This document shows positions 1 to 24,000 of a stretch of DNA of 24,000 nucleotides, in pieces (the first letter of the stretch is position 1; the number at the start of each line of letters is the position of its first letter). The notes beneath the pieces are model-generated. The model did no database searches and was not told where the DNA came from. It worked only from the letters and a program-made list of their open reading frames with translations. Position numbers and translations under genes: made by a program. Where the stretch lies: the NCBI RefSeq assembly GCF_001645765.1, contig NZ_LWUJ01000012.1, positions 147,020 to 171,019 on the forward strand, in the 5' to 3' direction. This DNA comes from Candidatus Mycoplasma haematobovis (GTDB lineage Bacteria; Bacillota_I; Bacilli_A; Mycoplasmatales; Mycoplasmoidaceae).

Positions 1-1106
1 ACGAGTTAATTAATAAACAAAAAACAGATTTTTCAAAAAGCTTGGTTTCTGCTTACGAAGATAACATTGGGGAACGAGTAAAGTTATTTATTACTAATAA
101 CCCTAAAAGAGAAGTTGATGAAATTGTAAACACTATTTTAGATATTAAGAAAAAAGAATTAGCTCCATATAGAAGTTTTGCGGTTCTCTTTCGTAACTGA
201 TCTTTCGGAAGAAAGTTAAGTGAAACACTTACTGATATGGGTATTCCTTTTTTCTCGGAAGACTTGAAAAATATTTGGAATAAAGAAGAAATTAAAGACG
301 CTTTGGCTTATTTGAGTCTAGCTTTTGAAGATGACATTTTAATAGCTAATAAATCATTGTTAAGGGTAATTAATAAGCCAACAAGAGGTTTTGGTCAAAA
401 GAGTTTGCAACTTTTAAAGTCAGAGGCGAATCGTATTGGTATTACTTTATTGGCTTTAATTAAGAGAAGAGCAAGAAAGGATCCTAAGTGCAGAAAACTT
501 TGAAATATCATAGGAGATATTAGGAAATTGGCAAGAAGGAAGTCAAGTTTGCATGTGAGAATGTCAAAAATTTTAAGAGCGTCTGGTTTAATGGATTATT
601 TTGAAAGGTCTGAACCTCAAAGATTAATAAATATTAATTTGTTTTTGAGTTTTATTTTTGAACTTGAAATAGGTGATTTACGAGAAGCCCTAGACAAACT
701 AAAAGAATTAACTAAATTTACTACAGATAGAGATGCAGTTTATTTGTCGACCGTTCATAGTGCTAAAGGTTTAGAGTTTGATTATGTATTTGTGATGCAT
801 ATGGAGGAGGGGAAATTGCCTTCTAAATATTCTCTAGAGAACGATAAGAAAATTGAGGAAGAAAGAAGAATAGCTTATGTAGCTTTTACAAGGACTAAGA
901 AACTGTTATTTTTATCCTCTTCTGGGGGAGAGGAAAAGATATCACGATTTCTTAAAGATATTGAACCACTTCTTTTGAAAACCATTGATTTATCAGAAGA
1001 ATATGAAGAACAGGATGATGAAGATGACGAGTCTTCAAATGAAGATAGAGGCGGTAGCCTCGAAGAGAATGATACATTATTAGATGATGTCTATGAAGAT
1101 GAATAA
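1..1106 (+). CDS. UvrD/PcrA-family SF1 helicase, paralog 1, C-terminal part (5' end outside window), acidic C-terminal tail
   Basis: The frame is open from nt 3. ORFs 237-503 and 528-1106 fuse across TGA at 198-200 and 501-503. Motif V/VI-like [15 protein letters not shown] and RRIAYVAFTRTKK are present. The product is collinear with the 4431-6505 product. Tail: EEQDDEDDESSNED...DDVYEDE. Confidence 0.9.
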
Positions 1107-1322
1107 ATGGCTAGTATGAGTAAGAAATCAAAATTATTATTAATTTAAGATTATTTGCTTATATTTTGTAGTCTTTGATATTAGTTAACTTTTCTAAAGC
1201 TATTGTATTTAAAAATATCCTTATTTTTAGTGCAAAAGGTTTTCTAAAACTTAAGGCGTTAGTCTATCACAATAAAAGATTCATTTTTTCGGATTTTTCA
1301 GTTGAAGTAAGTAAATTTTTTT

Positions 1323-4300
1323 ATGCTTTTTTGACGAAAAAAGAAAATTGAAATTCAAGAAAAACCTACTATTGTCCCTCAGGTCAAAAGGCCTGAACAG
1401 CCAATTTTAAAAAGGCTCTCACTTAAGACCGTTGAAATTCTTTCAAACTTTGATTTTCCCTTAGTAATTCTTACAGAAAAAGAAGAAATTGGCGAAAGAC
1501 TAGCACAAAGGCGTATTAGGTTATTGTCGGAAAAATTAGGTTTTAAACCGACAGAGATAATAGTGTTTTTTAGCTCTTCTTACAAAGATAAATTTTGGAA
1601 AGAGGCAACTTCATTTTGAAGGGTATTTGGTGGTTTGTGTAATAATGATTTGTCTCAAATTAATGATCCCAACAAGAGAAAAAGACTATTCACACTCGCA
1701 AATTTTGAAAAATATAAGGCTTTTATTATACTTGCACCTCTAGAAAGGGGCAATGTTCTCAACGAATTTATTTCAAGAATTAAAGGAGAACATAATAATA
1801 TTCTTTGGCTTGCTAATCAAGCAATACTGTCCCAGAGACAATTTACACTCCCAGATGGACTGTTCTCATTTTATGGTAAAGGTAAAGCACGTGAATTTAA
1901 GGATGGCACCCTCTTACATGTTGACATGTACAAAAGCGAAGTCTTAAATGGCGAAGAAAAAAGTCCCTCAAATTTTGAAACAAAAGTAACAATTGGCTTA
2001 AATAGTGTTGCATGTCAAAGTGCTCCATTTCAATTATCAGCTGAAATTGGAAAATATGTTTCAGAAGATAATTGTTTTTTATTTTCTGAAAATAATAACC
2101 TTTTAAAAGTAATAGCAGAGGAAAGAATAAATAGAATTTCGAAAAATTCTCAAAAAATAAAGATTATTACTTTTTCTCAAAATTGAAAACCTCATCCAAA
2201 TGTAACCTTAATTAATCCACGTTTCTTAAGTAACTATCAAATTGACAAAGCAAGTTTCGAATCTGTTGTTTTTTACGAAGACATTGACGACAACGTAAAA
2301 AACTGTATTGCTAAATGTTTACAGTTAAATATTAAAGTTTTTGTCGCTTTTAGACAAAAGGATTGAGATATTTTAACTATTTTTAAAGAAAATTGTCGTA
2401 GGTTTATTCTTCTTGATTTTGAATCAAAGTTTGCTGGAGATGCAAAAGTATTTTCATCTCCGCTATTGTCGGTAAATTCCACATCCGCTGAAGTCGGAGA
2501 ACTACAACTAGACGCAGAGGTTAAAAGACACGTTTTCGAAAACAACTGTCTTTTTCTCTCTAAAGATTTAAAGGTCCTAGAAAAAATAACCTCAGTAAGA
2601 GTTAACTATTTGAGTCAATTATCAAAAGAAAAATTAAATGTATTGATAATTTCTCCATTGTTTGAAAACTCTGAAATTTTCGAGCTGAAAGGAGAACTAA
2701 ACATAGTTAAACACGACTTCGAGTCCTTCGTCAAAAATTGTATTTTTAAAGATTCTAAGTTATCTTCGGGCTGGGAAGAAGAGGCAAAGAAACAATTAGA
2801 AAAATTTGATGCTTTTATCTTTCTTGAAAAGCCAAGTAGTCTTTTAAATCTTATTATTGCTACTGCTTTAAAGGTTTGTCAAAGTGTCTTGGTTCTTCTT
2901 CAAAAGCAGTCCAAGGATATTCTTGAAATTTTTAAAGAAAATTGTCGACGATTTACTTATTTAAACTTTGAGGAAGATTTTACGGGAAGTCGCAGTGTAT
3001 TTGAAAGGTCTCTTTTATCAATAGGACCCAAAATTTCTGAAACAAAAGAATTACAATTGGATCCAGAGGTCAAGAAATATATCTTTGAAGATAATTGTTT
3101 TGTATTTTCAAAAAATTGGGATGTTTTAAAGCGACTAGTTCAAGAGAGAATAGATAAAATTAAAAATGAGTTAAGCATAAGAATTGTTTCTCCTTTAAGT
3201 AACTGACAAAAAAACCCAAATATTACTTTGATAAAGCCTGAGGTTTTATTAAACAATCATTCTTTACAACAAGATACTGACTTTAATTATTTGGTCGTTT
3301 GTGAAGACGATGGCGAAAATTTATTGAAATTTATCGCCAGATGCTTAAATTCAAATATTAAAGTTTTTGTCGCTCTTAGAAGAGAATCACAATTAACCTT
3401 GTCGACCTTTAAAGTAAACTGCCAAAAATTTGTCTATTTAAATTTTGACAATGGACTTTTAGCTGAGGCAGAAATTTTTCCAAAAACTTTATCTTCGGAG
3501 ACTTCTAGGATCTTAACTGTTAATGAGCCAATTTCTATTTTTGAAGATTATGTACATCCAGAAAAAAATGTGCAAGATAAAGAAGATCCACTTTTTGATG
3601 AAATAAATCCCGAAGTTGCGGGTGGAAGTTTTGAAGTTAAGAAAAATTTAGAAAATAATCCTTCACCTACAGAAAATCAGGATGAAAAACTGTCAATTGT
3701 ACTTGATATTCAAGGAGAAGAATTTTCAGAAAAATCTTTGGAAGTTATTGAGGATTTTTCCAAACCTTTAGCAATCCTTACAGAAAATGAGGAGGTTAGT
3801 AAAAAACTAGCGTTTGAACGTATTTCCTTGATGAGAAATAAATATGGACTTTCTCCAAATCAAATAATGATTGCTTTCAGTTCTTCGTATAAGGATGATA
3901 GTTCATTAGAAGTAGACTCTTTTTGGAAAACTTGTGAAAATTTATGTGACAATGATTTGCATCAAATTTACCACGAATATCAGAGAAGGAGAATTTTTGA
4001 TAGTGTAAATTTTGAAAATAAATACAAGGCCTTTATCATTATTTCAACTTTTGATTGCAACATTGTTCTAAAGGAGTTTGTTAATAGAATTAAAGGTATT
4101 AGCAATGTTCTTTGACTTGCCTGTTATCCAGATCTTTCAGAAGAAAACTTTTTGTTAATTGATGATTTATTACCTACTTATTCAAAGTTTAAGGCAATTG
4201 AATCAAAGGATGGACAGACTATTAATATTGATTCATTTTCTAAGAAAAAACCAGAAGTCAAATCTACTTTTCTTTTTGAAGAAGCTCAGGAAGAAGATTT

Positions 4301-4424
4301 ACTTTTTGAAGATGCGGAATATGATTCATATTCAGAAGTCGATCCACTTTTTGATGATACCCAAGAGTTTAAAGAGTCAGATCCTCCTGATGACGACGAT
4401 GATATAGATGGCGGACTTTTTTAG
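1323..4424 (+). CDS. 1033-aa repeat protein made of degenerate helicase-like modules (2A'-1A'-1A'-1A'-2A') plus an acidic tail; putative pseudo-helicase
   Basis: ATG at 1323 follows an in-frame TAA at 1308-1310. ORFs 1635-2186, 2466-3206, 3228-4115 and 4152-4424 share one frame and are joined only by TGA codons. I found no TAA/TAG over 1033 codons in roughly 30% GC DNA. Internal repeats are visible at protein level. The stop at 4422-4424 lies 6 nt before the next ATG. Confidence 0.8.
1431..1820 (+). repeat. Module A1 (aa 37-166) of the repeat protein, 2A-like
   Basis: VEILSNFDFPLVILTEKEEIGERLAQRRIRLLSEKLGFKPTEIIVFFSSSYKD...KYKAFIILAPLERGNVLNEFISRIKGEHNNILWLAN is collinear with module A2. Confidence 0.75.
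2028..2426 (+). repeat. Module B1 (aa 236-368), 1A-like
   Basis: FQLSAEIGKYVSEDNCFLFSENNNLLKVIAEERINRI...KIKIITFSQNW...SVVFYEDIDDNVKNCIAKCLQLNIKVFVAFRQKDWDILTIFKENCRRFILLDFES is collinear with B2 and B3. Confidence 0.75.
2502..2975 (+). repeat. Module B2 (aa 394-551), 1A-like
   Basis: LQLDAEVKRHVFENNCLFLSKDLKVLEKI...LNVLIISPLFEN...FDAFIFLEKPSSLLNLIIATALKVCQSVLVLLQKQSKDILEIFKENCRRFTYLNFEE. The second half aligns to B1 without gaps. Confidence 0.75.
3051..3452 (+). repeat. Module B3 (aa 577-710), 1A-like
   Basis: LQLDPEVKKYIFEDNCFVFSKNWDVLKRLVQERIDKI...SIRIVSPLSNW...YLVVCEDDGENLLKFIARCLNSNIKVFVALRRESQLTLSTFKVNCQKFVYLNFDN. Confidence 0.75.
3738..4124 (+). repeat. Module A2 (aa 806-934), 2A-like
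   Basis: LEVIEDFSKPLAILTENEEVSKKLAFERISLMRNKYGLSPNQIMIAFSSSYKD...KYKAFIIISTFDCNIVLKEFVNRIKGISNVLWLAC is collinear with A1. Confidence 0.75.
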
Positions 4425-4430
4425 AAAATC

Positions 4431-6505
4431 ATGTCCTCAGATAAATCTAAAGTAATATTAAGATCTTTAAATCCACAACAAAGAGAGGCAGTAACTGCAC
4501 CCCTTAAACCGATATTAGTAGTAGCGGGTGCCGGAACAGGAAAAACGACAGTTCTGATAAAGAGATTTGAGTATCTAGTTAAAGAGAAGAATATACCTCC
4601 AGAAGAAATAATACTTGTTACTTTTACTAAGAAGGCTGCTACCGAAATAAAGAGAAGAATTTCACGTTTATTTCCGGATCCAGAGTTTTTGAAAGATGTG
4701 AGAGTCTCTACTTTCCATAAATTTTGTAGAGAAATTCTTGCCGAGGAAGGAATAAATTTTAAAGTTTGTTTTGAAACTAAAGCAATAGGATGTGTTAAAG
4801 AAGCTATTCAAAAATTAAATCTTCCGCTTAAATCTAATAGTGAATGTGCCAGACTTATTTGAAAAGTGAAGTGATTTCAAAATGTATCAGGAAAACCTGC
4901 TACTGATTGGGATTTAATAAAGGCTGGTAGGATTATTACACGTTCAAATGATGATACTATAGCAAAAAATATCCCTTTAAGGAATTTAAAAAAATTTGGG
5001 CGAAGTATGAAGATATTCTTAAGTCACAAAATTCGCTTTATTATGATGACATATTATTTAGAACTGATAAAATATTAGAGGATGAATCAAAAAGAAGTAA
5101 ATGGGATGGAAAAATAAAAGCAATTTTGTTTGATGAGTTTCAGGATATAGACCCAATACAATTTAGAATTATTTCCAAGCTTTCACAAGATAATAGGAAC
5201 ATTTTCTGTGTAGGAGACCCAGATCAAGCTATTTATGGTTTTAGAAATGCGTTACCAGAGGCTTTTCAAGACTTTAAGAATTATTTTGATGATGCTGAAA
5301 TTGTAAAACTTGAAATTAATTATCGTTCAACTGTTCAAATTCTTGATGTTGCTAATGAGTTAATAAATAAGAAAAAAAACATTTTCTCTAAGTATTTAAT
5401 TCCAGGCTCTAAAGAAAAGAATGGTGAAAAAGTAAGGCATTTTATTACTACTAATCCGGAAAGAGAAATTGAAGAAATTACCAATACTATTCTAAGCTTA
5501 CATAAGCAGAAAAAAGTTCCTTTCAAGAAATTTGCTGTTTTATTTCGTAATTGGTCTTATGGGAGAAGGGTAAATGAAGTGCTTACACAAAAAAGAATTC
5601 CTTTCTTTTCAGAGGATTTGAAGAGACTTTGAAATAGGGAAGAAATTAAAGACTCATTAGCTTATTTAAATATAGCTTTTGAGGATGATATTTACAATGC
5701 CAATAAATCCCTTCTTAGAGTAATTAACAAACCAGCTAGAGGATTCGGCGCAAAGTTTTTGGAAATTTTGACCAATGAAGCAAGAGAATTAGGAAGACCA
5801 CTAATAAAACATATTGTTTCAAAGGAAAAGGTAAATAGCGAACAGAAATGTGAGGATCTTTGCAATATCCTTAAGACTATTAGAAATATAGCCAAAGATA
5901 AAAAAAGACCGCTACACAATAGAGTTACAAGAATCTTAAGAGAGTCTGGATTAATATCTCATTTTCAAAAAGTAGACCCTTTAAGAGTCTCAAATATAAA
6001 TACCTTTTTACAATTGATTTTTGATCAAGATTTAAATGATCTTGAGCAAATTAAAGAAAGATTAAGAGAACTTACAAAATATACAGCAGATAGAGATGTT
6101 GTTTATTTAACCACTATACATGGTGCTAAAGGTTTAGAGTTTGATTACGTATTTGTAATGCATATGGACGAAGGGAAAATTCCTTCAAAGTTTACATTGT
6201 TAGAAAAGGAACCTAATGAATTCGAACAAAGAATTAATGAAGAAAGAAGATTAACTTACGTCGCTTTTACTAGAGCCAAGAAAGCATTGTTCTTATCTTC
6301 GGCTTTTGGACAGGCAATGATTTCTAGATTTGTTAAAGATGTTGAAACTAAAATATTTTCAATAGTGGATTTATTTGCTGATCCAAGCGACGATATGCTT
6401 GATGATCAGCTTTCTGAGGAAGAAATGTACTCAGATGAAGATTTACAGAGAGGTAGTGATCTTGAAGAAGCTAAAGACTTACAGGATGATGACGAAGATG
6501 GATAG
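4431..6505 (+). CDS. UvrD/PcrA-family SF1 helicase, paralog 2; full length only with a -1 shift (or one extra A) at the A6 tract 4964-4969
   Basis: All helicase motifs are present: [60 protein letters not shown]. The N-terminal part (4431-4967) is one frame ahead of the rest (ORFs 5126-5632 and 5759-6505, which fuse across TGA at 5630-5632). Acidic tail: DDMLDDQLSEEEMYSDED...DDDEDG. Confidence 0.85.
4962..4970 (+). other. Frameshift site GCA AAA AAT (A6 homopolymer; also fits an A_AAA_AAT slippery heptamer)
   Basis: Frame 0 reads ...ITRSNDDTIAKNIPLRNL and stops at TAG 5076-5078. Frame -1 reads KKYPFKEFKKIWAKYEDIL. Joining the two as TIAK-KYPF gives a gapless match to paralog 3 ([29 protein letters not shown]). 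Confidence 0.8.
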
Positions 6506-6705
6506 GAAATAAAAAATGGAAGGCAGTGTAATTGTTTTTTTAGATTTGGAACTGGATTAGTGCTCTATATTAGCTTCGGCTTTTGCAAGGATAGGATGAG
6601 GAACAGAGGGGTATTTTTCGTTATTATAAAAGGGGTGGAATAGTCTTGTTGCTCTTACTTTTAGGTTGGTCACACCATCCTATTTAGCTCTCTGGGGGGT
6701 GAGTT

Positions 6706-7311
6706 ATGATTTCAAAACTAAAACTCCCCATTTTAATTTCTCTTTTTTTTTCATTTTCAATGAGTAGCTATGTTTATTTTTCATTAAAGCGTGAACAATT
6801 AATATCTTCTGGAAAAGGAATAGGATACAGATTTGTTGACAAGTATTATCCGCCAGATAAAGCACCAGAAATCTTTAACACAATTTTTACAAATAACCAA
6901 ACAAAAATAAAAAAGTTACTGAAAATAAGTAGTGGAAAAGAATTACAAGGTTGATGTCAAAATGCTACTAAAGGAAAATGGGAATCTGACAGTGGAAAGG
7001 TGCTTATGCACGGATTAAAGTGATGCAGCTTGCCTGTTCATGTAGTTTTATTAAGAAAAAGTAATAAGTTGGATGAAACTAAGTTTGGTAAGCTTTTTCA
7101 GGATGTTGTAGATTCAAAAATTGAATTATTTGTTAAAGAACGTTTCCCCAATTTATGAGATAGCAAAGATCACTCAACACAAGAGAATAAAGCAAAACTT
7201 CTTAGGGGTGTAGTTGCAGGATTTTGTAAAGAGTCCTTAAGTGATGCTTGAACTTTTTATTATGAAAGTCAACGAAACGCTATTGATTCTTTATGTCCGG
7301 AGGGAACATAA
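6706..7311 (+). CDS. Hypothetical secreted or membrane-anchored Cys/Trp-containing protein (201 aa)
   Basis: ATG is preceded by the SD-like GGGGGTGAG. N-terminal hydrophobic segment LPILISLFFSFSMSSYVYF. ORF 6706-6954 extends across four in-frame TGA codons to TAA at 7309-7311. Confidence 0.65.
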
Positions 7312-12750: not shown

Positions 12751-13686
12751 ATGTCACCATACGTTGCTCATTTTCCAGTAATGGCTAAAGAAACAGTGGG
12801 ATATTTAGCCCACTCTACTGACGGCCTTTATTTAGATTGTACTTTTGGAGCTGGCGGGCATACTAAACAATTACTTTCTGTAATTTCTCCTAATGCTAGA
12901 GTAATAGGACTAGATTTAGATCAAAGAGCAGTTGAAATAGGTAAAGAATTAGAGAAAGAAGATAATAGATTTTCAATAATACATATGAATTTTGCTGACT
13001 ATGTTAAGTACAGAAAAGAACATGACTTACCTAAAGCAAAAGGAGTTATTTTTGATTTAGGGGCTTCTACTATGCAACTTAAAGATAAAGAAAGAGGCTT
13101 TAGTTACAAATATGATGCCCATTTAGATATGCGTATGGATCAATCTTCTTCTTTAACTGCTGCAGAAATATTGAATACTTATCCAAGAAGAGAGCTTAAA
13201 GATATCTTTAAGAAATATGGAGATATTGCTAATCCAGATAAATTAGTTAATTTAATAAGTCTTTATAGAAAACAAAATGATTTCATTGAAACTACAGAAG
13301 TATTTAAAGCTATAGTTGAAGAAGCTTTCTGAAATATAGATGCTATTAAATTTAATAAAGTATTAAGAAAATGTTTTCAAGCTCTAAGAATAGCTGTTAA
13401 TAAAGAGTTTTCTTCATTAGAGAAAGCTCTAGAGTCATTAAATGAAATTCTTGAAGTAGGAGGAATTGCTTGTATTATTACTTTTCACTCTGGAGAAGAA
13501 AGAATAGTTAGAGCTTGAAAAAGTAAATATTGTGACAATATAGAGATTCAAGACTATTCACAAAATATTCTTAATAAATTTAAATTTGTTACTGAGAAAT
13601 ATATAGTTCCTGAAGAATATGAAATAGTAGAGAATTGAGCTTCTAGATCTTCAAAATTATGAGTTATTCAAAAAGTTAAGGATTAA
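12751..13686 (+). CDS. rsmH: 16S rRNA (cytosine1402-N4)-methyltransferase RsmH/MraW
   Basis: HFPVM...[12 protein letters not shown]...[10 protein letters not shown]-like, [22 protein letters not shown]. The ORF extends across four TGA codons to TAA at 13684-13686. Confidence 0.9.
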
Positions 13687-15511
13687 ATTCTAGTAAGTTA
13701 CTTAATTCTTTAATATAGGGAGAGACTTTTCCAGAAGAACTTAAGAATAATTTTTTCTTTGCTCTAGTAAAGGCCACATAAGCCAATCTTCTTTCTTCCT
13801 CGGCCTCTAAAGAATATTTGTAAGGCAACTTTCCTTCATCTAATTTAATTACAAAAACATAATCAAACTCTAGCCCTTTTGCACCATGTATAGTTCCTAT
13901 ATACAATTGATCCTTCTCAACCCCATATTTAGTCATTTCTTCAATATTCTTTTTGATAACATCCAAATCAAACTTCTCTTCATCTAATACATTCTTTAAT
14001 ATCGCTTTAGCTCTATCATATTTTTCCATATCTCTTTCTGACCAATAACTTCAGTAACCACATTTAGTTAATACATTATTTACTTGCTCTACAATACTTA
14101 ATTCTTGATTTACTAAAGAATTAAGTAATTCAGAAAAAGCTTTCACAGCATAATCTTTTGATTTAGTTATTGCTTCTCTCAAAGAGATATTCTCAACTTT
14201 AGCAGTATTCTTTAATATTTCTTGTTTCTTTATGCCTATCCCTCTATTTGGTTTATTAATAACTCTTTCAAGCGCTCTATCTACTTTTTTTGCATCTTTT
14301 TCAAATGCTACTGAAAGATATGCAATCATATCTTTAATTTCTTCTCTTCTTCAAAAGGCATAAAGCTCTCTAGAGATGAAAGGAATTCTTTTGGCTAGTA
14401 ATAAATTAGTTAATTGATTACCAAAACTATTATTTCTGTAAAGTACTGCACAATTCTTAAGAGCAATATCTTCTTCAGTCTGCAATTTAATAATAGTATT
14501 AACTACATATTTGTCTTCTTCTCCCGCTAAATAACAACTTACTTTATTCCCATCAGGATTATTAGTATTTAATTCTTTTGAAAATATACCTCTATTCTTA
14601 TTAATTAAAGTATTAGCTGTCTCTAAGATTTGAGGAGTAGATCTGTAATTAAGCTCTAATTTAAATAATTCTGCATTTTTGTAATGTTCTTTAAATTCTT
14701 CAAAAGAATTCTTTAGAGCCCCTCTAAAGCCATAAATAGCTTGATCTGGATCTCCTACACAAAAAATATTTGCTTCTTTTTCAGTTAATTTCTTAATTAT
14801 TTCAAACTGTATTTCATCAATATCTTGAAATTCATCAAATAATACTGCCTTAAATTGCTGATTTCATATCTCTCTTATTTGTTCGTTATTTAATAATTCA
14901 TTAGCTTTCAAAAGAATATCATCAAAATCTAATTGATTATGTTTCTGTAATTTCTTTTCATAGCTGTTGTAAACAGCTTTCATTTCTTTATATGGAAATT
15001 TATCAAGCACTTTACTTTCTTTAAATCTAGTTATTTCTTTTCCAATATTAACTAAGTCTGCTTCTGTAAAGTCTTTAGTTCTTATTTTTCATTTAATTTT
15101 CCTAATAATATCAGTAGCAAACTTAATATTAGTAATTGATAACTTTAGTTCTTCAGTAATTATTTCTCTTATGTAATATTCAGTTCTCTTAGGAAAACAA
15201 ATAGCAAAACTAAAGCCACTAGACTCTAATAAAGTTTTGGCAAATTTATGAAAAGTAGAGATGTAAGTATTCTTTAGATCTAAATTATTAATAGTTTGCT
15301 CTATTCTTTTTCTCATTTCTTGAGCAGCTTTCTTAGTGAAAGCAATAGCAAGAATATTATTTGGACTTATTCCATATTCTTTAACTAAATATTCATATCT
15401 CTTTACTAATATTGTTGTTTTGCCTGTACCTGCTCCAGCAACAACTAATATTGGTTTAAGAGGTGCAGTTATAGCTTCTTTTTGTTGTTTATTTAATTCT
15501 TCTGTATTCAT
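13676..15511 (-). CDS. UvrD/PcrA-family SF1 helicase, paralog 3 (611 aa, no acidic tail)
   Basis: ORFs 15089-15511, 14051-14329 and 13676-14029 are in one frame. I translated the gaps and found only TGA codons. Motifs [51 protein letters not shown] and [10 protein letters not shown] are present. Its 3' end overlaps the rsmH 3' end by 11 nt (convergent). Confidence 0.9.
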
Positions 15512-15564
15512 ATTTCATTAATGTTTGACAATAGTAAAAAAGGTAGAAATTAAAAGAAAGAGAT

Positions 15565-15888
15565 ATGCGAGTAAGATTTAAGAAGCCTTTAATTGTGCTG
15601 GGTAGTGCTGGGGCAGTTGGAGGAGCTGGTTATTATGCTTTTTCCAGATGATCTAGCGATGAACTTACTGTAGCACCTAAAGTTAGCAATGCTCCTAAAT
15701 GATTTAATAAACTTAAAAATTCCAAAAAAGAATCACTTCCTGTAGATTTACAGGCGGCCCAAATTTGAACAAAATTGGGAGATACACCGGATCATCAAAG
15801 AGTAGCAAGCAACTGAATTGAATTGTTTTGCTCAGAGGAGCCAAAACCTAGCAATAATGAGTATTGTAATAAGGAAAATATAAATTAA
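15565..15888 (+). CDS. Small hypothetical membrane-anchored protein (107 aa)
   Basis: MRVRFKKPLIVLGSAGAVGGAGYYAF, followed by a Trp/Cys-containing region. Four in-frame TGA codons. Divergent from helicase 3 (53-bp spacer). Overlaps the MTase 3' end by 4 nt. Confidence 0.5.
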
Positions 15889-16862
15889 TTTATAGGTGTG
15901 CCATCTAATACTTTTAAGATCTCTTTAGCTATTGCATAAATTACTGGTACTGAGACAGAATTACCAAATTGTTTGTAAGCTTGATTGTCGCTTACAGGTA
16001 TTAGATAATTATCAGGAAATCCTTGTAGTCTTGCGGCCTCTCTAGGCGTTATCTTTCTAGGATTTTTATTTTCCTGCTCTATTAGTATCTCACTACCATC
16101 TTTGTAATATCTTGCAGAAATGGTATTAGTATATCTACTGTTCTTGTTGAATAATGAAAAACCAAACCCTCTACCTTTTGCTATATGTTTGGCTTTTCTT
16201 CTTTGATGCCCTTCCCAAAGTAAATCAGAAATAGTATATTTACTATCTACATTCTGCTCTAATATATTGCCTACATAAGTACTTTCTAAAGTTGGAGTGG
16301 GCATTTTGAATTCTTCATAACTGCTAATCAATCCTTTATTAAAGCCAACAATATATATTCTTTCTCTATTTTGAGGCACTCCAAAGTCTCTAGCTCTAAG
16401 TATAGAATAAGTAACATAGTAGTTTAATTTTTCTAAATTATCCTTAATTATTTTGAATGTTTCGCCTTTATTATGCGTCTTTAAATTCTTTACATTTTCA
16501 AGAAGAAATGATTTTGGTTTCTTATCTTCAAGAATTCTTATTATTTCAAAAAATAATGCTCCCCTTTCATCATTAAAGCCTTTTTTCTTGCCTGCTTGAC
16601 TGAATGCTTGACAAGGAAATCCAGCTACTAATATTTCGTGATCATCAATATCATTAGTATTTATTTCTCTAATATCTCCGGCCGTATCTTCACCAAAATT
16701 AGTTTTGTAAGTGATTTTTGCAAATTTATCAATTTCACTACTAAACACTACTTTAACTTGTCCAGTTAAGTGAAAGCCTAATCTTGTCCCACCAATACCA
16801 GCAAATAAATCAATCATTTTATATTTAGCTTTTTCATTATTAGGGAAAGGTATTGATTTCAT
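15885..16862 (-). CDS. DNA (cytosine-5)-methyltransferase (type II R-M modification subunit)
   Basis: Canonical C5-MTase motifs: I DLFAGIGG, IV GFPCQAFS, VI ENV, VIII QNRERIYIVG, X GNSVSVPV. TRD contains TISARYYKDGSEILI. Confidence 0.92.
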   Translation of the reverse strand: MKSIPFPNNEKAKYKMIDLFAGIGGTRLGFHLTGQVKVVFSSEIDKFAKITYKTNFGEDTAGDIREINTNDIDDHEILVAGFPCQAFSQAGKKKGFNDERGALFFEIIRILEDKKPKSFLLENVKNLKTHNKGETFKIIKDNLEKLNYYVTYSILRARDFGVPQNRERIYIVGFNKGLISSYEEFKMPTPTLESTYVGNILEQNVDSKYTISDLLWEGHQRRKAKHIAKGRGFGFSLFNKNSRYTNTISARYYKDGSEILIEQENKNPRKITPREAARLQGFPDNYLIPVSDNQAYKQFGNSVSVPVIYAIAKEILKVLDGTPIN

Positions 16863-16910
16863 AGTTTGAATTAATATTTTTTTAGTAGTATTGGAAAAGT
16901 TATTTTAAGA

Positions 16911-17822
16911 ATGAACGAACAATCTTTAAAGGAATTTAAAAAATTTGTTAGAGAATGACAAAAACAGCGTTCTAAAGCGGCTTGAGAATTAATTTGTGAA
17001 TTATTTATTGAGTTAGGTTTTAATAAACAAAATAAGAATTATTTTTTAGAGAATGCTAGTACTGTTATTGAAGAAATAAGATGAAAAAGTTTTAAAGAAT
17101 TGAAAAATAGAGAGATATTTTCATTAGATCATGTATTTGAATATTTATTTAAAGAAGCTAAAATTAGTGATCCAAAAACTAAAGAAATAATTGTTAATTT
17201 CTTAAAGCAATTTCATGAACATCTTTATTCATTGAATTTATCCTTAACTCAAAGCAGAAGATCAAGAACCGGAAAGGAATTTGAAAGTATTATTGAATTA
17301 ATTTTTTCTAGTAGCAATATTCCCGTAAATAATCAAAGTGTTATTAAAAATAAAGATTCAAAAAAATTAATAGATTTTATCTCTCCTAGCTCTGTAGAGT
17401 ATCAAATAGACAAAGATAAAGTGATCTTTATTAGTGTAAAGACCACTTTGAGAGAAAGATGGCAAGAAGTAATAGATGAAATAAATAGAGCAGAAATAAC
17501 AAAGATTTTCTTAATAACTTTAGATGAAAAATTAACTAAGAATTTATTACATACTTGTAAACAATTAAATATACAGTTAGTAACGCTTAAATCTGTTAAA
17601 GAGAAATATTATTTTAATAGCAATGAAATAATATCTATTGAAGAGCTATTAAATATTTGCAAAAACAACTTGGTTTATTGGATTAATTATGACTATTCTG
17701 AAAAAGAAAGACAAGAAATTAGAGAAATATTGAATAAACAATTAAAAAAATATTCACAGTTACAAGAAATAAAGGAATACTACTTAAGAAAAATTAAAGA
17801 AGTATCTGAATCTAATCAGTAG
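16911..17822 (+). CDS. Putative type II restriction endonuclease (PD-(D/E)xK-like)
   Basis: ORF 17100-17822 extends upstream across three TGA codons to ATG 16911 (303 aa). It is divergent from the MTase (48-bp spacer). Nuclease-like pattern: RTGKEFESIIE ... IDFISP ... VIFISVKTTLRERWQ. Confidence 0.55.
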
Positions 17823-19749: not shown

Positions 19750-19825
19750 TGGCACACCTGATAGGATTCGAACCTACAGCCTTTTGATCCGAAGTCAAAT
19801 GCTCTATCCGTTGAGCTACAGGTGC
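19750..19825 (-). tRNA. trnR: tRNA-Arg (anticodon UCG), CCA encoded
   Basis: Reverse complement GCACCTGTAGCTCAACGGATAGAGCATTTGACTTCGGATCAAAAGGCTGTAGGTTCGAATCCTATCAGGTGTGCCA folds as a cloverleaf. Anticodon stem TTTGA/TCAAA with loop CTTCGGA. T-arm GGTTCGAATCC. Confidence 0.9.
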
Positions 19826-21937: not shown

Positions 21938-24000
21938 ATGTCTTGTGCTGAATTAATCTTCTTATTACTTTCACATAAGAAATCATTACTTAAATTTGTA
22001 TTAGGTAGCTCTATTACTTATGGTGCTTATCTCGGAGCCATAAAGCCCTCTCTTTCTAATTCCATAAGAAAAGTAGAAGGGGCTAATATACAACAAGGTA
22101 AATATAGAGATTCTATAAAGCTCACTAAAGCTCACTAAAGCTCCTATACCTCAAGTGCATAATGCACTTGAATTAAATACATTAAAGAATTTAGATCAAA
22201 ATAAATATAGATTTCATCCTTCTTTAACTAAGTACTTAAATAAGAAAGATATCTTTGAAAAACAGAAATTTAGTTTATGAAAAGCTAATAATGGAAAGAT
22301 TAAAGCAGCTATTTCTAGTGAAGCATATTGTTTATCTTGTGCAACTCTTTCAGATAGAGAATTAATTTATGGAGATACTTATTTTTCTGAAAAAGTAAGA
22401 GAACTTAAAGAAGAGGAATTAGTACAAGATATTTTGTGGTCTTTATGAGAAGAATCAAAATACAATGATACTTTAATACATACTGAGAGCATTAAAGTAG
22501 ATTTACAGTTAAATAAAGATAACAAAATAACAGAAGTTAAACAATTCTCTATTTCATTCAAAGTATCTAATTTAAGCGGAAGAAAAGCACAAGTATTTAG
22601 ATCTATTGATTTAGACCCACATACTCAAACAGAAGTAAATATATTACTAAATAATGCAGAATTAAAAGTAGCACCTGTTGCCGCAGGTATACATGGTCTT
22701 AAATATAGTTCTTGAAATTTATTTCCCAAAAATGACCAATGAAAAGTAGTAAAGAATATTCAACAACCTAATAAACAAACAATTACCTCTACTCATTTTT
22801 CTTTGCAATTAATTTATGGTTCCAGTAGATTCATTCCACACTCTATCTCTCGTGATGAGAAGTTGTATTCTATGTGAATGAAAACAGCTTTCAATACTAT
22901 TGACTATGGCTATATTAAAGATAAATTAACACCTTATTTAACTCGAATAACAGAACAACAAGTTAAAGAAGATATAGAGAGTTGATATGGAGGATATGTT
23001 GCTTATTTAATAAGAACAAGAATAGAGGATATTCAGAATCTTATTGATTTAATGCAAAAGAAAACTATAGAGAATGATAAAGGAATTAAAGAATCCATAT
23101 TTGAACAAGTATTAAATAATTATCAATTCAGAAATAATCTATATCATCACTTTAGACTTAATGATACTTACAAACAAGTACTTAATAAGTTATTAACTAA
23201 TGATAAGAATTCAACAGGTGGAATAAGAATAACAATTGAAGAAGTAATAGGTTTATTAAAGAGTTGAATTTATCAATTAAAGCAAATTCAAGATTCAATT
23301 AGAGTTGAAATTAAGTGAATCGAAACACCTAGAAGAGTTTATTCCCAAGCAGGACAAAGTGGAGATTTTCCTAATTTTGCCTTTAGTTTTGAACAGAAAA
23401 TTATTTGAACTAAAGAAATGAAAATACCTTTGAAAGGTGTATGGAATATTAGTGAAAATAAATATGAAGAGTTAAAACAACAACAAACAGAAAGTGGTAA
23501 GTACAAATTTGATCTTACAAATAAATTAATAAATCTTAAAGAGGTATTAACTCCTTTAACTGGCTTAATATCTGGAATTAATGGAGGTAAGTTTGGGGAT
23601 ATTGATATTATGAATAGCTTAATTCCTGATGTTGGTAAATTTATTGGATTAGAGTCACTAAAGATTAATAAAGACGAAGCAATTACTTACACTTATAAAA
23701 CTAATGGAACACCTTTAACTTTAGCACTAGATGAAACATCAGATTTACAGGGTAAATTATTTCCAAGAATGAGTATAGGATGAAAAGCTTTAGATGTTAG
23801 TGCAGGTTTAGATTTATCTAAATTTACACAACTTTTCTATTCAATCTATGAGAAATTTGATTTAGGTTCAGAAAAAGATAATCCTTTAAGCTACAACGAT
23901 TTATTTCAACTTGAAGCAAAATTAAATCAAAGCCCTATTACTTTCATTGCTCATGCTATTAACTCTATATTTGATGAGAATTACAAAAAAAGTCACAGAA
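21938..24000 (+). pseudogene. Large putative surface or membrane-anchored protein gene split by a 10-bp tandem duplication; 3' end outside window
   Basis: A 66-codon N-terminal fragment with hydrophobic anchor (SLLKFVLGSSITYGAYLGAI) ends at TAA 22136-22138. The main frame is open from 22119 to 24000 (only TGA codons). Removing one 10-bp repeat unit fuses the two frames exactly. Confidence 0.7.
22117..22143 (+). repeat. Tandem 10-mer AAAGCTCACT x2 plus partial AAAGCTC
   Basis: Read directly: ttctat-AAAGCTCACT-AAAGCTCACT-AAAGCTC-ct. Confidence 0.95.

What the first reader, a model, noticed from the sequence alone, without database searches (positions are those of the whole stretch)
1323..4424. 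A 1033-codon ORF that looks like an array of catalytically dead UvrD-helicase half-domains
With TGA read as Trp, four track ORFs and an ATG at 1323 fuse into one ORF. It has no TAA/TAG over 3.1 kb of roughly 30% GC DNA, which chance or a long-decaying pseudogene cannot explain. It contains two A modules and three B modules. By eye, the B modules align to the N-terminal (1A) half of the flanking helicase. Examples: [19 protein letters not shown] vs LDPEVKKYIFEDNCFVFS; EIILVTFTKK vs KIKIITFSQN; [36 protein letters not shown] vs SVVFYEDIDDNVKNCIAKCLQLNIKVFVAFRQKD; FKNYFDDAEIVKLEINYRS vs FKENCRRFILLDFES. The A modules align to the 2A half. Examples: ITTNPEREIEEITNTILSLHKQKKVPFKKFAVLFRNWSYG vs ILTENEEVSKKLAFERISLMRNKYGLSPNQIMIAFSSSYKD; [15 protein letters not shown] vs EFISRIKGEHNNILWLAN. 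Every catalytic signature is lost. There is no GxGxGKT. DEFQD has become YEDID/CEDDG/FLEKP. GDPDQ has become FRQKD/LRRES/LQKQS. There is no TIHGAKG and no FTRAK. The last B3-A2-tail unit mimics a complete helicase, including its acidic tail. I do not know of a maintained multi-domain pseudo-helicase encoded next to its active relatives. It could act as a scaffold, regulator or decoy for those helicases.
Basis: partly seen in the sequence, partly recalled or inferred. Interest (0 to 1): 0.82.

Follow-up and report, generated by a model that had tools for sequence, protein, structure and literature searches.

The report
Array of dead helicase-like domains
A genuine 1033-codon gene of the cattle blood parasite Candidatus Mycoplasma haematobovis encodes five tandem copies of a motor-less domain, probably derived from a helicase, plus an acidic tail; it sits directly in front of a UvrD-type helicase gene, so it is most likely a non-catalytic partner of that helicase.

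Summary
With TGA read as Trp, window 1323-4424 (+) is one 1033-codon ORF, NCBI hypothetical protein A6V39_04250 of Candidatus Mycoplasma haematobovis. It has no TAA/TAG where about 65 are expected. Its codon usage matches neighbouring genes. Its internal repeats (A1/A2, B1/B2/B3) have diverged with dN/dS of 0.2-0.5. An independent sequencing run reproduces it exactly.

No Walker A or DExQ motif is present, and no Pfam UvrD hit is found. A and B are variants of one module. That module best matches the N-terminal (1A) motor domain of the flanking helicases with subdomain 1B removed, and not 2A. The AlphaFold model of B3 has a generic P-loop-NTPase/RecA-like fold. The link to helicases is suggestive rather than proven.

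The strongest support is context. Three genes ending in an acidic tail plus GGL[F/Y]-COOH each lie 6-23 nt upstream of a UvrD paralogue. One of them (P0125, in a sister species) is clearly derived from 1A.

The protein is an orphan with no orthologue found. The most likely role is a non-catalytic, co-expressed partner of the downstream helicase, but this is inferred. Dead helicase partner subunits (RecC, AddB) are already known, so this is a new variant of a known kind.

The parts
3..1106 (+). 3' part (367 codons) of UvrD/PcrA-type helicase H1 (A6V39_04245, 677 aa in full). It has intact motifs and an acidic C-terminal tail.
   Evidence: (P0003).
1107..1322 (+). 216-nt AT-rich spacer between H1 and the ORF. 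It has no convincing promoter or + strand terminator.
   Evidence: counts do not exceed the shuffled expectation.
1323..4424 (+). ORF1033 (A6V39_04250), 1033 codons in table 4, with stop TAG at 4422-4424.
1323..1409 (+). Basic N-terminal leader, aa 1-29. It is not a signal peptide.
   Evidence: sequence inspection.
1410..1949 (+). Module A1, aa 30-209.
   Evidence: A-family against helicase 1A (1B excised): P 9e-4, z 5.9.
2004..2465 (+). Module B1, aa 228-381.
2478..3002 (+). Module B2, aa 386-560, with an insertion of about 20 aa.
3030..3497 (+). Module B3, aa 570-725. The AlphaFold model has an alpha/beta, P-loop-NTPase-like fold with no P-loop.
   Evidence: (pLDDT 74.7 overall; most core 10-residue blocks 88-93).
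3498..3677 (+). Acidic linker, aa 726-785, pI about 4.2.
3678..4262 (+). Module A2, aa 786-980.
   Evidence: The structure prediction failed.
4263..4421 (+). Acidic tail, aa 981-1033 (about 40% D+E), ending DDDDDIDGGLF-COOH. It is homologous to the tail of A6V39_04240 (P0122).
   Evidence: (z 7.9).
4431..6505 (+). UvrD/PcrA-type helicase H2 (A6V39_04255/04260). Its ATG lies 6 nt after the ORF1033 stop. It has intact motifs I-VI and an acidic tail. The reading frame is broken once.
   Evidence: (P0002).
4964..4969 (+). A6 run where H2 shifts frame. An A7 run would restore ..IAKKYPFKEF.. as in H1.
13679..15517 (-). Third UvrD paralogue H3 (611 aa, no acidic tail). It is the orthologue of the single M. 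haemofelis uvrD next to rsmH and has no upstream accessory gene.

Best explanation
**What it is**
- ORF1033 is a genuine, selection-maintained gene for a non-catalytic protein.
- It is built from five tandem copies (A-B-B-B-A) of one alpha/beta module of about 150-180 aa.
- The module has a RecA-like/P-loop-NTPase fold but no P-loop and no DExx box.
- The module most probably descends from the N-terminal motor domain (1A, with subdomain 1B removed) of the neighbouring UvrD/PcrA paralogues.
- The array ends in an acidic tail of about 50 aa whose tip is GGLF-COOH.

**The family it belongs to**
- It is the expanded member of a small hemoplasma family: 'dead 1A-like domain + acidic tail + GGL[F/Y]'.
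- Genes of this family always lie immediately upstream of a UvrD paralogue: A6V39_04240 before H1, ORF1033 before H2, and P0125 before P0004 in a sister species.

**Inferred mechanism (not shown)**
- It is co-transcribed and co-translated with the downstream helicase and binds it as an inert partner.
- The dead domains would act as a surrogate second protomer or scaffold. Five modules would allow several helicases or DNA contacts at once.
- The acidic tail with its terminal aromatic residue would act as a docking peptide or ssDNA mimic, like the SSB C-terminal tip. This would tune helicase loading or activity.
For: **Shown: a real coding gene**
- P(no stop) is about 5e-30. Repeat pairs have pS 0.61-0.79 against pN 0.33-0.42, giving dN/dS 0.2-0.47. 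Identity by codon position is 2nd > 1st > 3rd for three of the four repeat pairs (3rd exceeds 1st in B1-B2).
- Codon usage correlates at r 0.89. An independent run gives the identical sequence.

**Shown: no catalytic motifs**.

**Shown: one module type**
- A against B by hhalign: P 0.005, z 4.7, 0/100 shuffles reach the score. The MAFFT alignment is collinear.

**Suggestive: origin from 1A**
- A against 1A(delta-1B): P 9e-4 over 164 of 187 columns, z 5.9.
- A+B against 1A: P 0.007, z 4.2. A+B against 2A: z 0.7.
- A2, A1 and P0122 rank in the top 1-4% of 116 real-protein decoys.
- Motif positions agree across the A, B, P0125 and helicase alignments.
- The B3 model (mean pLDDT 74.7; most core 10-residue blocks 88-93) hits PilT, PilF, FlaI, a RuvB-like helicase, RadA and VirB11, all P-loop ATPases, at E of about 1e-4 and TM of about 0.5.

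**Context**
- P0122 has one B module (E 3e-25 to a B1-3 HMM) and a homologous tail (z 7.9). It ends 6 nt before the H1 start codon.
- P0125 ends in MGGLY, lies 23 nt before helicase P0004, keeps 'VFDEF', and matches 1A at P 8e-7, z 12.4, with 0/116 decoys reaching it.
- GGL[FY]-COOH occurs only in these three of 274 ORFs. The expectation is 1.5e-5 per protein.
- The ORF1033 stop and the H2 ATG are 6 nt apart.
Against: - No Pfam, NCBIfam, PDB-sequence or plain-HMM hit links ORF1033 itself to UvrD.
- B1-B3 taken singly are indistinguishable from decoys.
- Column-shuffle nulls are lenient. A true 2A profile scores z 3.2 against 1A.
- Foldseek finds only a generic P-loop-NTPase fold, not one specific to SF1 helicases.
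- The A module could not be modelled (pLDDT 36).
- P0125 is not detectably similar to A or B outside the tail tip.
- No orthologue exists in 5.8 billion and 1.84 billion protein libraries, in GTDB genomes or in JGI metagenomes.
- The sister species (L004) lacks the gene, so it is dispensable there.
- The presumed partner H2 carries a frameshift.
- There are no expression or interaction data, so the function is pure inference.
Confidence: 0.5

Rival explanations
1. One reading: B modules are dead 1A halves and A modules are dead 2A halves, so B3-A2-tail imitates a complete helicase.
For: - A against 2A(delta-2B) by hhalign gives P 0.021, z 3.0, with 1/120 shuffles reaching the score.
- The by-eye matches to the 2A start and to motif VI are plausible.
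- In Ca. M. haematohominis, real dead-2A modules do exist.
Against: - A fits 1A better (P 9e-4, z 5.9).
- A aligns to B (z 4.7).
- The joint A+B profile matches 1A (z 4.2) but not 2A (z 0.7).
- A does not match the Ca. M. haematohominis dead-2A profile (z 0.2).
- A z of about 3 is the cross-talk expected between the two RecA-like halves.
- The tail is not like the helicase tails.
Confidence: 0.1
2. A lineage-specific repeat protein made of generic Rossmann/flavodoxin-like alpha/beta modules with no descent from helicases. On this view its position beside UvrD genes reflects a shared hot-spot of duplication, or a functional link without homology.
For: - No HMMER-level similarity to UvrD.
- B1-B3 do not rise above decoys.
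- Foldseek hits are to many P-loop ATPases and not to SF1 helicases.
- The region is full of lineage-specific paralogues.
Against: - hhalign alignments are consistent, full-length and collinear in motif order, for both A and A+B against 1A.
- The same gene slot and the same rare GGL[FY] tip are shared with P0125, which is unambiguously derived from 1A.
- Hemoplasmas demonstrably make dead UvrD domains next to UvrD genes.
Confidence: 0.22
3. A non-functional relic: debris of helicase-gene duplication that merely happens to be still open, with no role.
For: - The cluster is visibly decaying. H2 is frameshifted.
- In the sister species the H1 and H2 orthologues are truncated and ORF1033 is absent.
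- The protein is an orphan.
Against: - 3.1 kb without a stop in 30% GC DNA has P of about 5e-30.
- The repeats diverged to 27-48% identity with dN/dS 0.2-0.5 while staying in frame.
- Codon usage is native.
- The tail tip is conserved between paralogues.
Confidence: 0.07

Closest known systems
RecC (RecBCD) and AddB (AddAB): inactivated SF1 helicase-like subunits
   Same: Both are helicase-derived proteins that have lost ATPase motifs, are kept by selection, are encoded beside an active UvrD-like SF1A helicase, and work as its non-catalytic partner (PMC3321194, PMC1185551, PMC4614115).
   Different: - RecC and AddB keep a paired 1A-like + 2A-like core that forms an ssDNA (Chi-scanning) channel, and they carry a nuclease or nuclease-like domain. 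Their partners RecB and AddA carry a nuclease.
- ORF1033 has five 1A-like modules only, no 2A, no nuclease, and an acidic tail.
- Its partner resembles PcrA and has no nuclease.
- No sequence homology to RecC or AddB was detected.
UvrD/PcrA/Rep domain 1A (PF00580 N-terminal RecA-like domain)
   Same: The order of secondary-structure elements and the motif positions match (Q-motif helix, beta1, alpha, Ia strand, II strand, III strand, IV region). The profile similarity is weak but consistent.
   Different: There is no Walker A, no DExQ, no GDxxQ and no 1B insertion. It falls below every family threshold.
A6V39_04240 (P0122) and P0125: small 'dead domain + acidic GGL[F/Y] tail' genes upstream of UvrD paralogues
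   Same: - P0122 has one B module (E 3e-25) and a homologous tail (z 7.9).
- P0125 occupies the same slot, has the same tail tip and is clearly derived from 1A.
- All three lie 6-23 nt upstream of a helicase.
   Different: They carry one module, whereas ORF1033 carries five of two subtypes. P0125 is not detectably similar to A or B in its domain.
Ca. M. haematohominis large ORFs flanking UvrD (L007, L008)
   Same: They are proteins of 950 to about 2000 aa with no Pfam hit, made of dead UvrD domains, adjacent to active UvrD genes in another hemoplasma.
   Different: - They contain a dead 1A plus 1-3 dead 2A modules and a distinct C-terminal domain.
- They have no acidic GGLF tail.
- Their homology to UvrD is clear (P 1e-10 and 3e-7).
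- They have no detectable similarity to ORF1033 modules.
SSB C-terminal acidic tip (..DDDIPF)
   Same: Both have a disordered acidic tail that ends in a hydrophobic residue and then Phe-COOH. In SSB this tip docks genome-maintenance proteins (PMC4137731, PMC5531588; the rest is from general knowledge).
   Different: The tip here is DIDGGLF rather than DDDIPF, and there is no OB fold. The resemblance is a lead only and was not tested.

Membership tests
SF1A UvrD/Rep/PcrA helicase | Walker A / motif I GxGxGKT | tested here: not met
   The regex finds no [AG]xxxxGK[ST] or GK[ST] anywhere in the protein.
SF1A UvrD/Rep/PcrA helicase | Motif II DExQD and motif III GDxxQ | tested here: not met
   The aligned positions read YEDID/CEDDG/LEKPS/STFDC and FRQKD/LRRES/LQKQS/CYPD.
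SF1A UvrD/Rep/PcrA helicase | Significant match to PF00580/PF13245 (N-terminal) and PF13361 (C-terminal) profiles | tested here: not met
   No hit even at E <= 10. Local 1A and 2A HMMs give no hit at E < 0.01.
SF1A UvrD/Rep/PcrA helicase | Paired 1A + 2A RecA-like domains with 1B/2B insertions | tested here: not met
   All modules match 1A(delta-1B) best, and none matches 2A.
Domain descended from UvrD 1A (homology only) | Profile-profile similarity to 1A above chance, collinear in motif order | tested here: inconclusive
   - A: P 9e-4, z 5.9. A+B: P 0.007, z 4.2. B: P 0.009-0.05.
- In the decoy test A2 is reached by 1/116 decoys, A1 by 5/116, P0122 by 3/116 and B1-B3 by 27-88/116.
Domain descended from UvrD 1A (homology only) | RecA-like/ASCE alpha/beta fold | tested here: met
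   For B3 only. The model has pLDDT 74.7. Foldseek top hits in PDB and BFVD are all P-loop ATPases at E of about 1e-4. The A model failed.
RecC/AddB-type inactive helicase subunit | Encoded next to an active SF1A helicase and lacking ATPase motifs | tested here: met
RecC/AddB-type inactive helicase subunit | Nuclease or nuclease-like (PD-(D/E)XK) C-terminal domain, and a partner helicase that carries a nuclease | tested here: not met
   ORF1033 has no such Pfam domain. The best NCBIfam matches for H1 and H3 are PcrA, UvrD and Rep, and these helicases are only 611-691 aa long.
RecC/AddB-type inactive helicase subunit | Forms a stable complex with the helicase | not testable with these tools
   Needs co-purification or a complex prediction.
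Hemoplasma 'dead domain + acidic GGL[F/Y] tail' family (A6V39_04240 / P0122) | B-type module recognised by a non-circular HMM | tested here: met
   An HMM built from B1-B3 finds P0122 at E 3e-25 and L004 1067-1465 at E 1e-10. phmmer of the whole library finds P0122 at 1.8e-7.
Hemoplasma 'dead domain + acidic GGL[F/Y] tail' family (A6V39_04240 / P0122) | Acidic tail ending GGL[F/Y]-COOH, with the gene immediately upstream of a UvrD paralogue | tested here: met
SSB-type C-terminal docking tip | Acidic run followed by a hydrophobic residue, any residue, then Phe-COOH, which binds partner proteins | not tested
   Only the sequence resemblance was seen (DDDDDIDGGLF against DDDIPF). Binding cannot be tested here.

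The most novel reading that the evidence does not exclude
Hemoplasmas have evolved, at least twice, a previously undescribed class of helicase-derived pseudoenzymes that are co-expressed with UvrD paralogues: the 'dead 1A + acidic GGLF tail' family here, and the dead 1A+2A arrays in Ca. M. haematohominis. ORF1033 would be a multivalent version in which five inert motor domains and an SSB-like docking tail assemble or gate several helicase molecules on DNA. That would be a new way of regulating SF1 helicases in minimal genomes that lack RecBCD/AddAB.
Probability: 0.3. Interest if true: 0.65.

Novelty: new variant of a known kind. Interest (0 to 1): 0.5.

Why it matters
- SF1 helicases such as UvrD, Rep and PcrA are weak as monomers and are switched on by partners or by self-association. 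A family of inert domains derived from 1A, with a conserved docking tail and hard-wired upstream of UvrD paralogues, would be a natural experiment in that kind of regulation.
- Together with the clearer Ca. M. haematohominis arrays, it shows that part of the large 'hypothetical protein' fraction of hemoplasma genomes is degenerated DNA-repair machinery rather than surface antigens.
- Practically, it gives an annotation for A6V39_04250 and A6V39_04240 and flags several Ca. M. haematohominis ORFs of about 950-2000 aa as UvrD-derived.

Tried and rejected
**Searches that found nothing**
- Pfam and NCBIfam on the whole protein gave only sub-threshold noise (DUF1831, NET2A). PADLOC gave no hit.
- Profile searches of the PDB sequences with the A and B alignments returned only weak hits to EngB and to de-novo 'P-loop fold' designs.
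- BLASTP of the ORF against the flanking helicases gave only A2 against the H3 N-terminus at E 0.006.
- Homologue searches in the 5.8-billion and 1.84-billion protein libraries, GTDB genomes and JGI metagenomes found no orthologue. The hit to P0123 is a spurious repeat protein. The B alignment was too divergent to be used for a genome scan.

**Structure**
- AlphaFold of A2 with only 2 sequences gave pLDDT 36 and is unusable.

**Ideas dropped**
- The B3-A2 linker as a relic tail (..EVAGGSF): not significant, z 1.1.
- The L004 'B-like ORF followed by UvrD_C' as proof that B occupies the 1A slot: rejected. It is better read as a deletion fusing the P0122-like and H1-like genes, with an in-frame stop and a frameshift.
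- ORF1033 modules compared with Ca. M. haematohominis dead-1A and dead-2A profiles: no similarity.
- The genes upstream of the housekeeping-like PcrA (P0009, L006) are membrane proteins, not family members.
- Promoter and terminator scans were uninformative.
Full report
**Source and observation**

The window is from Candidatus Mycoplasma haematobovis (syn. 'Ca. M. haemobos'), a hemotropic mycoplasma of cattle that uses genetic code 4. The ORF product is identical to NCBI hypothetical protein A6V39_04250. The draft genome is described in PMC4939789.

In table 4 the frame is open from 1311 to 4421. The first ATG is at 1323 and the stop is TAG at 4422-4424, giving 1033 aa. There are six in-frame TGA and five TGG codons.

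From base composition about 65 TAA/TAG would be expected, so P(no stop) is about 5e-30. Four of the other five frames carry 57-64 such stops and the fifth carries 12. Codon usage in this frame correlates at r = 0.89 with dnaG, glyS, rsmH and other genes of the window. Wrong frames give 0.44-0.56.

A separate Illumina run of bovine blood DNA (SRR10198112, an Anaplasma marginale project; PMC6838627) assembles window 1-4526 at 100% identity. The sequence and its repeat structure are therefore real.

**Internal anatomy**

BLASTP of 120-aa windows against the protein confirms two A modules. They span aa ~30-209 and ~786-980, at 42-48% identity and E down to 4e-31. It also confirms three B modules at aa ~228-381, ~386-560 and ~570-725, at 27-43% identity.

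Around the modules lie a basic 29-aa leader, an acidic linker (aa 726-785) and a 53-aa acidic tail. The tail is about 40% D+E, has pI 4.05, and ends DDDDDIDGGLF.

Nei-Gojobori comparison of the repeat pairs gives pS 0.61-0.79 (saturated) against pN 0.33-0.42, so dN/dS is 0.2-0.47. Identity by codon position is 2nd > 1st > 3rd for three of the four repeat pairs; in B1-B2 the 3rd position exceeds the 1st. The copies therefore diverged for a long time as coding sequence under purifying selection. That excludes a fresh pseudogene.

**Is it a dead UvrD?**

Catalytic motifs are absent. No Walker A, GK[ST] or DExQ-like box is present.

Standard homology tools see nothing:
- Pfam and NCBIfam.
- PDB sequence profiles.
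- HMMs built from the flanking helicases' 1A or 2A domains.

I then compared module profiles with an alignment of 20 UvrD/PcrA helicases from which 1B (H2 residues 109-221) or 2B (396-547) had been cut out. Significance was calibrated with column shuffles.

| Comparison | P | z | Shuffles reaching the score |
|---|---|---|---|
| A vs 1A | 9e-4 (164 of 187 columns) | 5.9 | 0/120 |
| A vs 2A | 0.021 | 3.0 | 1/120 |
| B vs 1A | 0.009-0.05 | 2.6-3.2 | 1/120 and 3/100 |
| B vs 2A | not significant | 0.5-1.1 | 31/120 and 14/100 |
| A vs B | 0.005 | 4.7 | 0/100 |
| A+B vs 1A | 0.007 | 4.2 | 0/100 |
| A+B vs 2A | 0.36 | 0.7 | 21/100 |

The A, B, P0125 and helicase alignments put the same elements in register:
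- PLAILTENEEV / NCFVFSKNWDV / [13 protein letters not shown]
- IMIAFSSS / IRIVSPLS / ILVTFTKK
- YKAFIIISTFD / FNYLVVCEDDG / IKAILFDEFQD
- NVLWLACYPD / KVFVALRRES / [10 protein letters not shown]

A harder null used 116 windows of 175 aa taken from real non-helicase proteins of the same loci. Against the 1A profile, A2 is reached by 1/116 decoys, A1 by 5/116 and P0122 by 3/116. B1-B3 are reached by 27-88/116.

As positive controls, the dead modules of Ca. M. haematohominis score P 1e-10 (2A) and 3e-7 (1A). A true 2A profile gives z 3.2 against 1A. Values near z = 3 are therefore only 'RecA-like cross-talk'.

AlphaFold2 of B3 with a 6-sequence family alignment gives mean pLDDT 74.7, with most core 10-residue blocks at 88-93. 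The order of helices and strands matches that of 1A. Foldseek finds PilT, PilF, FlaI, a RuvB-like helicase, RadA and VirB11 in the PDB at E of about 1e-4 and TM of about 0.5. In BFVD it finds DotB, FtsK-like proteins, packaging ATPases, DnaB, RecD-like and UvrD-like proteins. This is a generic ASCE/P-loop-NTPase fold without a P-loop, not a fold specific to SF1 helicases. The A2 model failed at pLDDT 36.

My conclusion is that A and B are one module type, most likely a degenerate 1A lacking 1B. I put the probability at about 0.7-0.75. The 2A assignment of A and the 'complete pseudo-helicase' reading of B3-A2-tail are not supported.

**Context**

The exhaustive HMMER scan of 1.84 billion representatives finds only one true relative, P0122 (E 1.8e-7). 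P0122 is A6V39_04240, the gene immediately upstream of helicase H1.

P0122 is one B module (E 3e-25 to an HMM built from B1-B3). It carries an acidic tail ending DDDEDISGGLF that is homologous to the ORF1033 tail (z 7.9, 0/500 shuffles).

The locus therefore reads as follows. P0122 is followed 6 nt later by H1. A 216-nt spacer then leads to ORF1033, and H2 starts 6 nt after the ORF1033 stop.

In a sister species (Logan contig L004) the housekeeping proteins are 84-87% identical to those of the window. There, a 208-aa gene (P0125) ending ..DDGVSMGGLY lies 23 nt upstream of the intact UvrD P0004.

Its domain keeps 'YKIIVFDEFCDD' and is unambiguously derived from 1A:
- hhalign P 8e-7, z 12.4.
- 0/116 decoys reach its score.
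- Plain HMM E 9e-6.
- A weak PF00580 hit at E 0.03.

GGL[F/Y]-COOH occurs only in these three of 274 ORFs of 80 aa or more in all loci. The expectation is 1.5e-5 per protein. The ORF1033 tail is not specifically like the helicases' own acidic tails (z <= 1.6).

The housekeeping-like PcrA (P0009) has no such upstream gene. Neither does H3, nor its orthologue, the single M. haemofelis uvrD.

The cluster evolves fast. In L004 the P0122/H1 pair is fused by a deletion and carries an in-frame stop and a frameshift. Only the C-terminal half of the H2 orthologue survives, at 68% identity. No ORF1033 orthologue is present. No orthologue was found in GTDB genomes or JGI metagenomes.

**Mechanism (inferred)**

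What is shown is an inert, maintained, multi-domain protein with a conserved tail tip, in a two-gene cassette with a UvrD paralogue at spacing typical of translational coupling.

From established knowledge, UvrD, Rep and PcrA monomers are poor helicases that are activated by self-association or by partners (MutL, RepD, PriC). Acidic tails ending in an aromatic residue, such as the SSB tip DDDIPF (PMC4137731, PMC5531588), act as docking peptides or DNA mimics.

I therefore commit to this reading. ORF1033 is a non-catalytic partner (scaffold or regulator) of the downstream helicase. Its dead 1A modules provide surrogate protomer or DNA contacts, and its tail docks on the helicase or another genome-maintenance protein.

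Overall confidence is about 0.5. It is high for 'real, non-catalytic, module array'. It is moderate for '1A-derived'. It is low to moderate for the specific role.

Several points count against the partner model:
- H2 is frameshifted at an A6 run (4964-4969).
- The sister species lacks the gene.
- No expression data exist.

**Comparison with known systems and novelty**

Maintained dead SF1-helicase proteins beside active relatives are well known. RecC and AddB are inactivated helicase-like subunits working with RecB and AddA (PMC3321194, PMC1185551, PMC4614115).

ORF1033 works like them in principle but fails their defining features. It has no paired 1A/2A channel and no nuclease(-like) domain. 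Its partner also lacks a nuclease.

Another hemoplasma, Ca. M. haematohominis, has ORFs of 950 to about 2000 aa with no Pfam hit flanking UvrD genes. These are clear arrays of a dead 1A ('GWNREET' in place of GAGTGKT) and one to three dead 2A modules. They show that this kind of protein recurs in hemoplasmas. They are not detectably related to ORF1033.

Hemoplasma genome papers mention DNA helicase paralogues, and a possibly horizontally acquired UvrD/PcrA, but not these proteins (PMC3958358).

I class the finding as a new variant of a known kind, of moderate interest (0.5).

Noticed in passing
window 4964-4969 (within helicase H2, 4431-6505): H2 is split into two ORFs (4425-5075 and 4931-6502) by a -1 shift in an A6 run. 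An A7 run would restore ..IAKKYPFKEF.. as in H1. This could be a phase-variable tract, a real pseudogene or a homopolymer error in the draft genome.
   Followed up: partly
L007 8159-11467 and 11480-14169; L008 1-2862, 2862-5981 and 8084-11209 (Ca. M. haematohominis): ORFs of about 950 to 2000 aa with no Pfam hit flank active UvrD genes. They contain an N-terminal dead 1A domain (GWNREET replaces GAGTGKT; hhalign P 3e-7) and one to three compact dead 2A modules (P 1e-10). They appear to be undescribed.
   Followed up: partly
L005 988-1704 (A6V39_04240, just upstream of the window): A 238-aa protein made of a single B module plus an acidic tail ending DDDEDISGGLF. It ends 6 nt before the start of helicase H1. 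The window therefore holds the second of two tandem 'accessory gene + UvrD' cassettes.
   Followed up: yes
L004 1-7731 (sister hemoplasma, Logan SRR32406774): The same cluster is heavily rearranged even though housekeeping proteins are 84-87% identical. A B-like 133-aa ORF is fused, through an in-frame stop and a frameshift, to the C-terminal half of an H1-like gene. An extra cassette (P0125 + P0004) is present. Only the C-terminal half of the H2 orthologue remains.
   Followed up: partly
window 15888-16904 (-) and 16911-17819 (+): A C-5 cytosine DNA methylase (PF00145, E 3e-110) and an EcoRII-C-like endonuclease (PF09019, E 6e-22) form a type II restriction-modification pair. The pair lies between H3 and the DUF6856 gene, which are adjacent in M. 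haemofelis.
   Followed up: partly
window 6688-7308 (+); L004 44-658, 691-1050, 5717-6061 and 7096-7728; L005 119-742: A family of Cys-containing proteins of about 110-210 aa, each with an N-terminal hydrophobic segment, borders and interrupts the helicase cluster. They have no Pfam hit and diverge fast (51% identity between sister species, against about 85% for housekeeping genes).
   Followed up: no
window 19750-19825 (-): tRNA-Arg (anticodon TCG). This is the only Rfam or ARAGORN hit in the window.
   Followed up: yes
window 22119-23999 (+), running off the end: A large ORF of more than 627 aa. It lies at the position syntenic to the 909-aa and 940-aa proteins of M. haemofelis (L002 834-6398), which have no Pfam hit. 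It was not examined.
   Followed up: no
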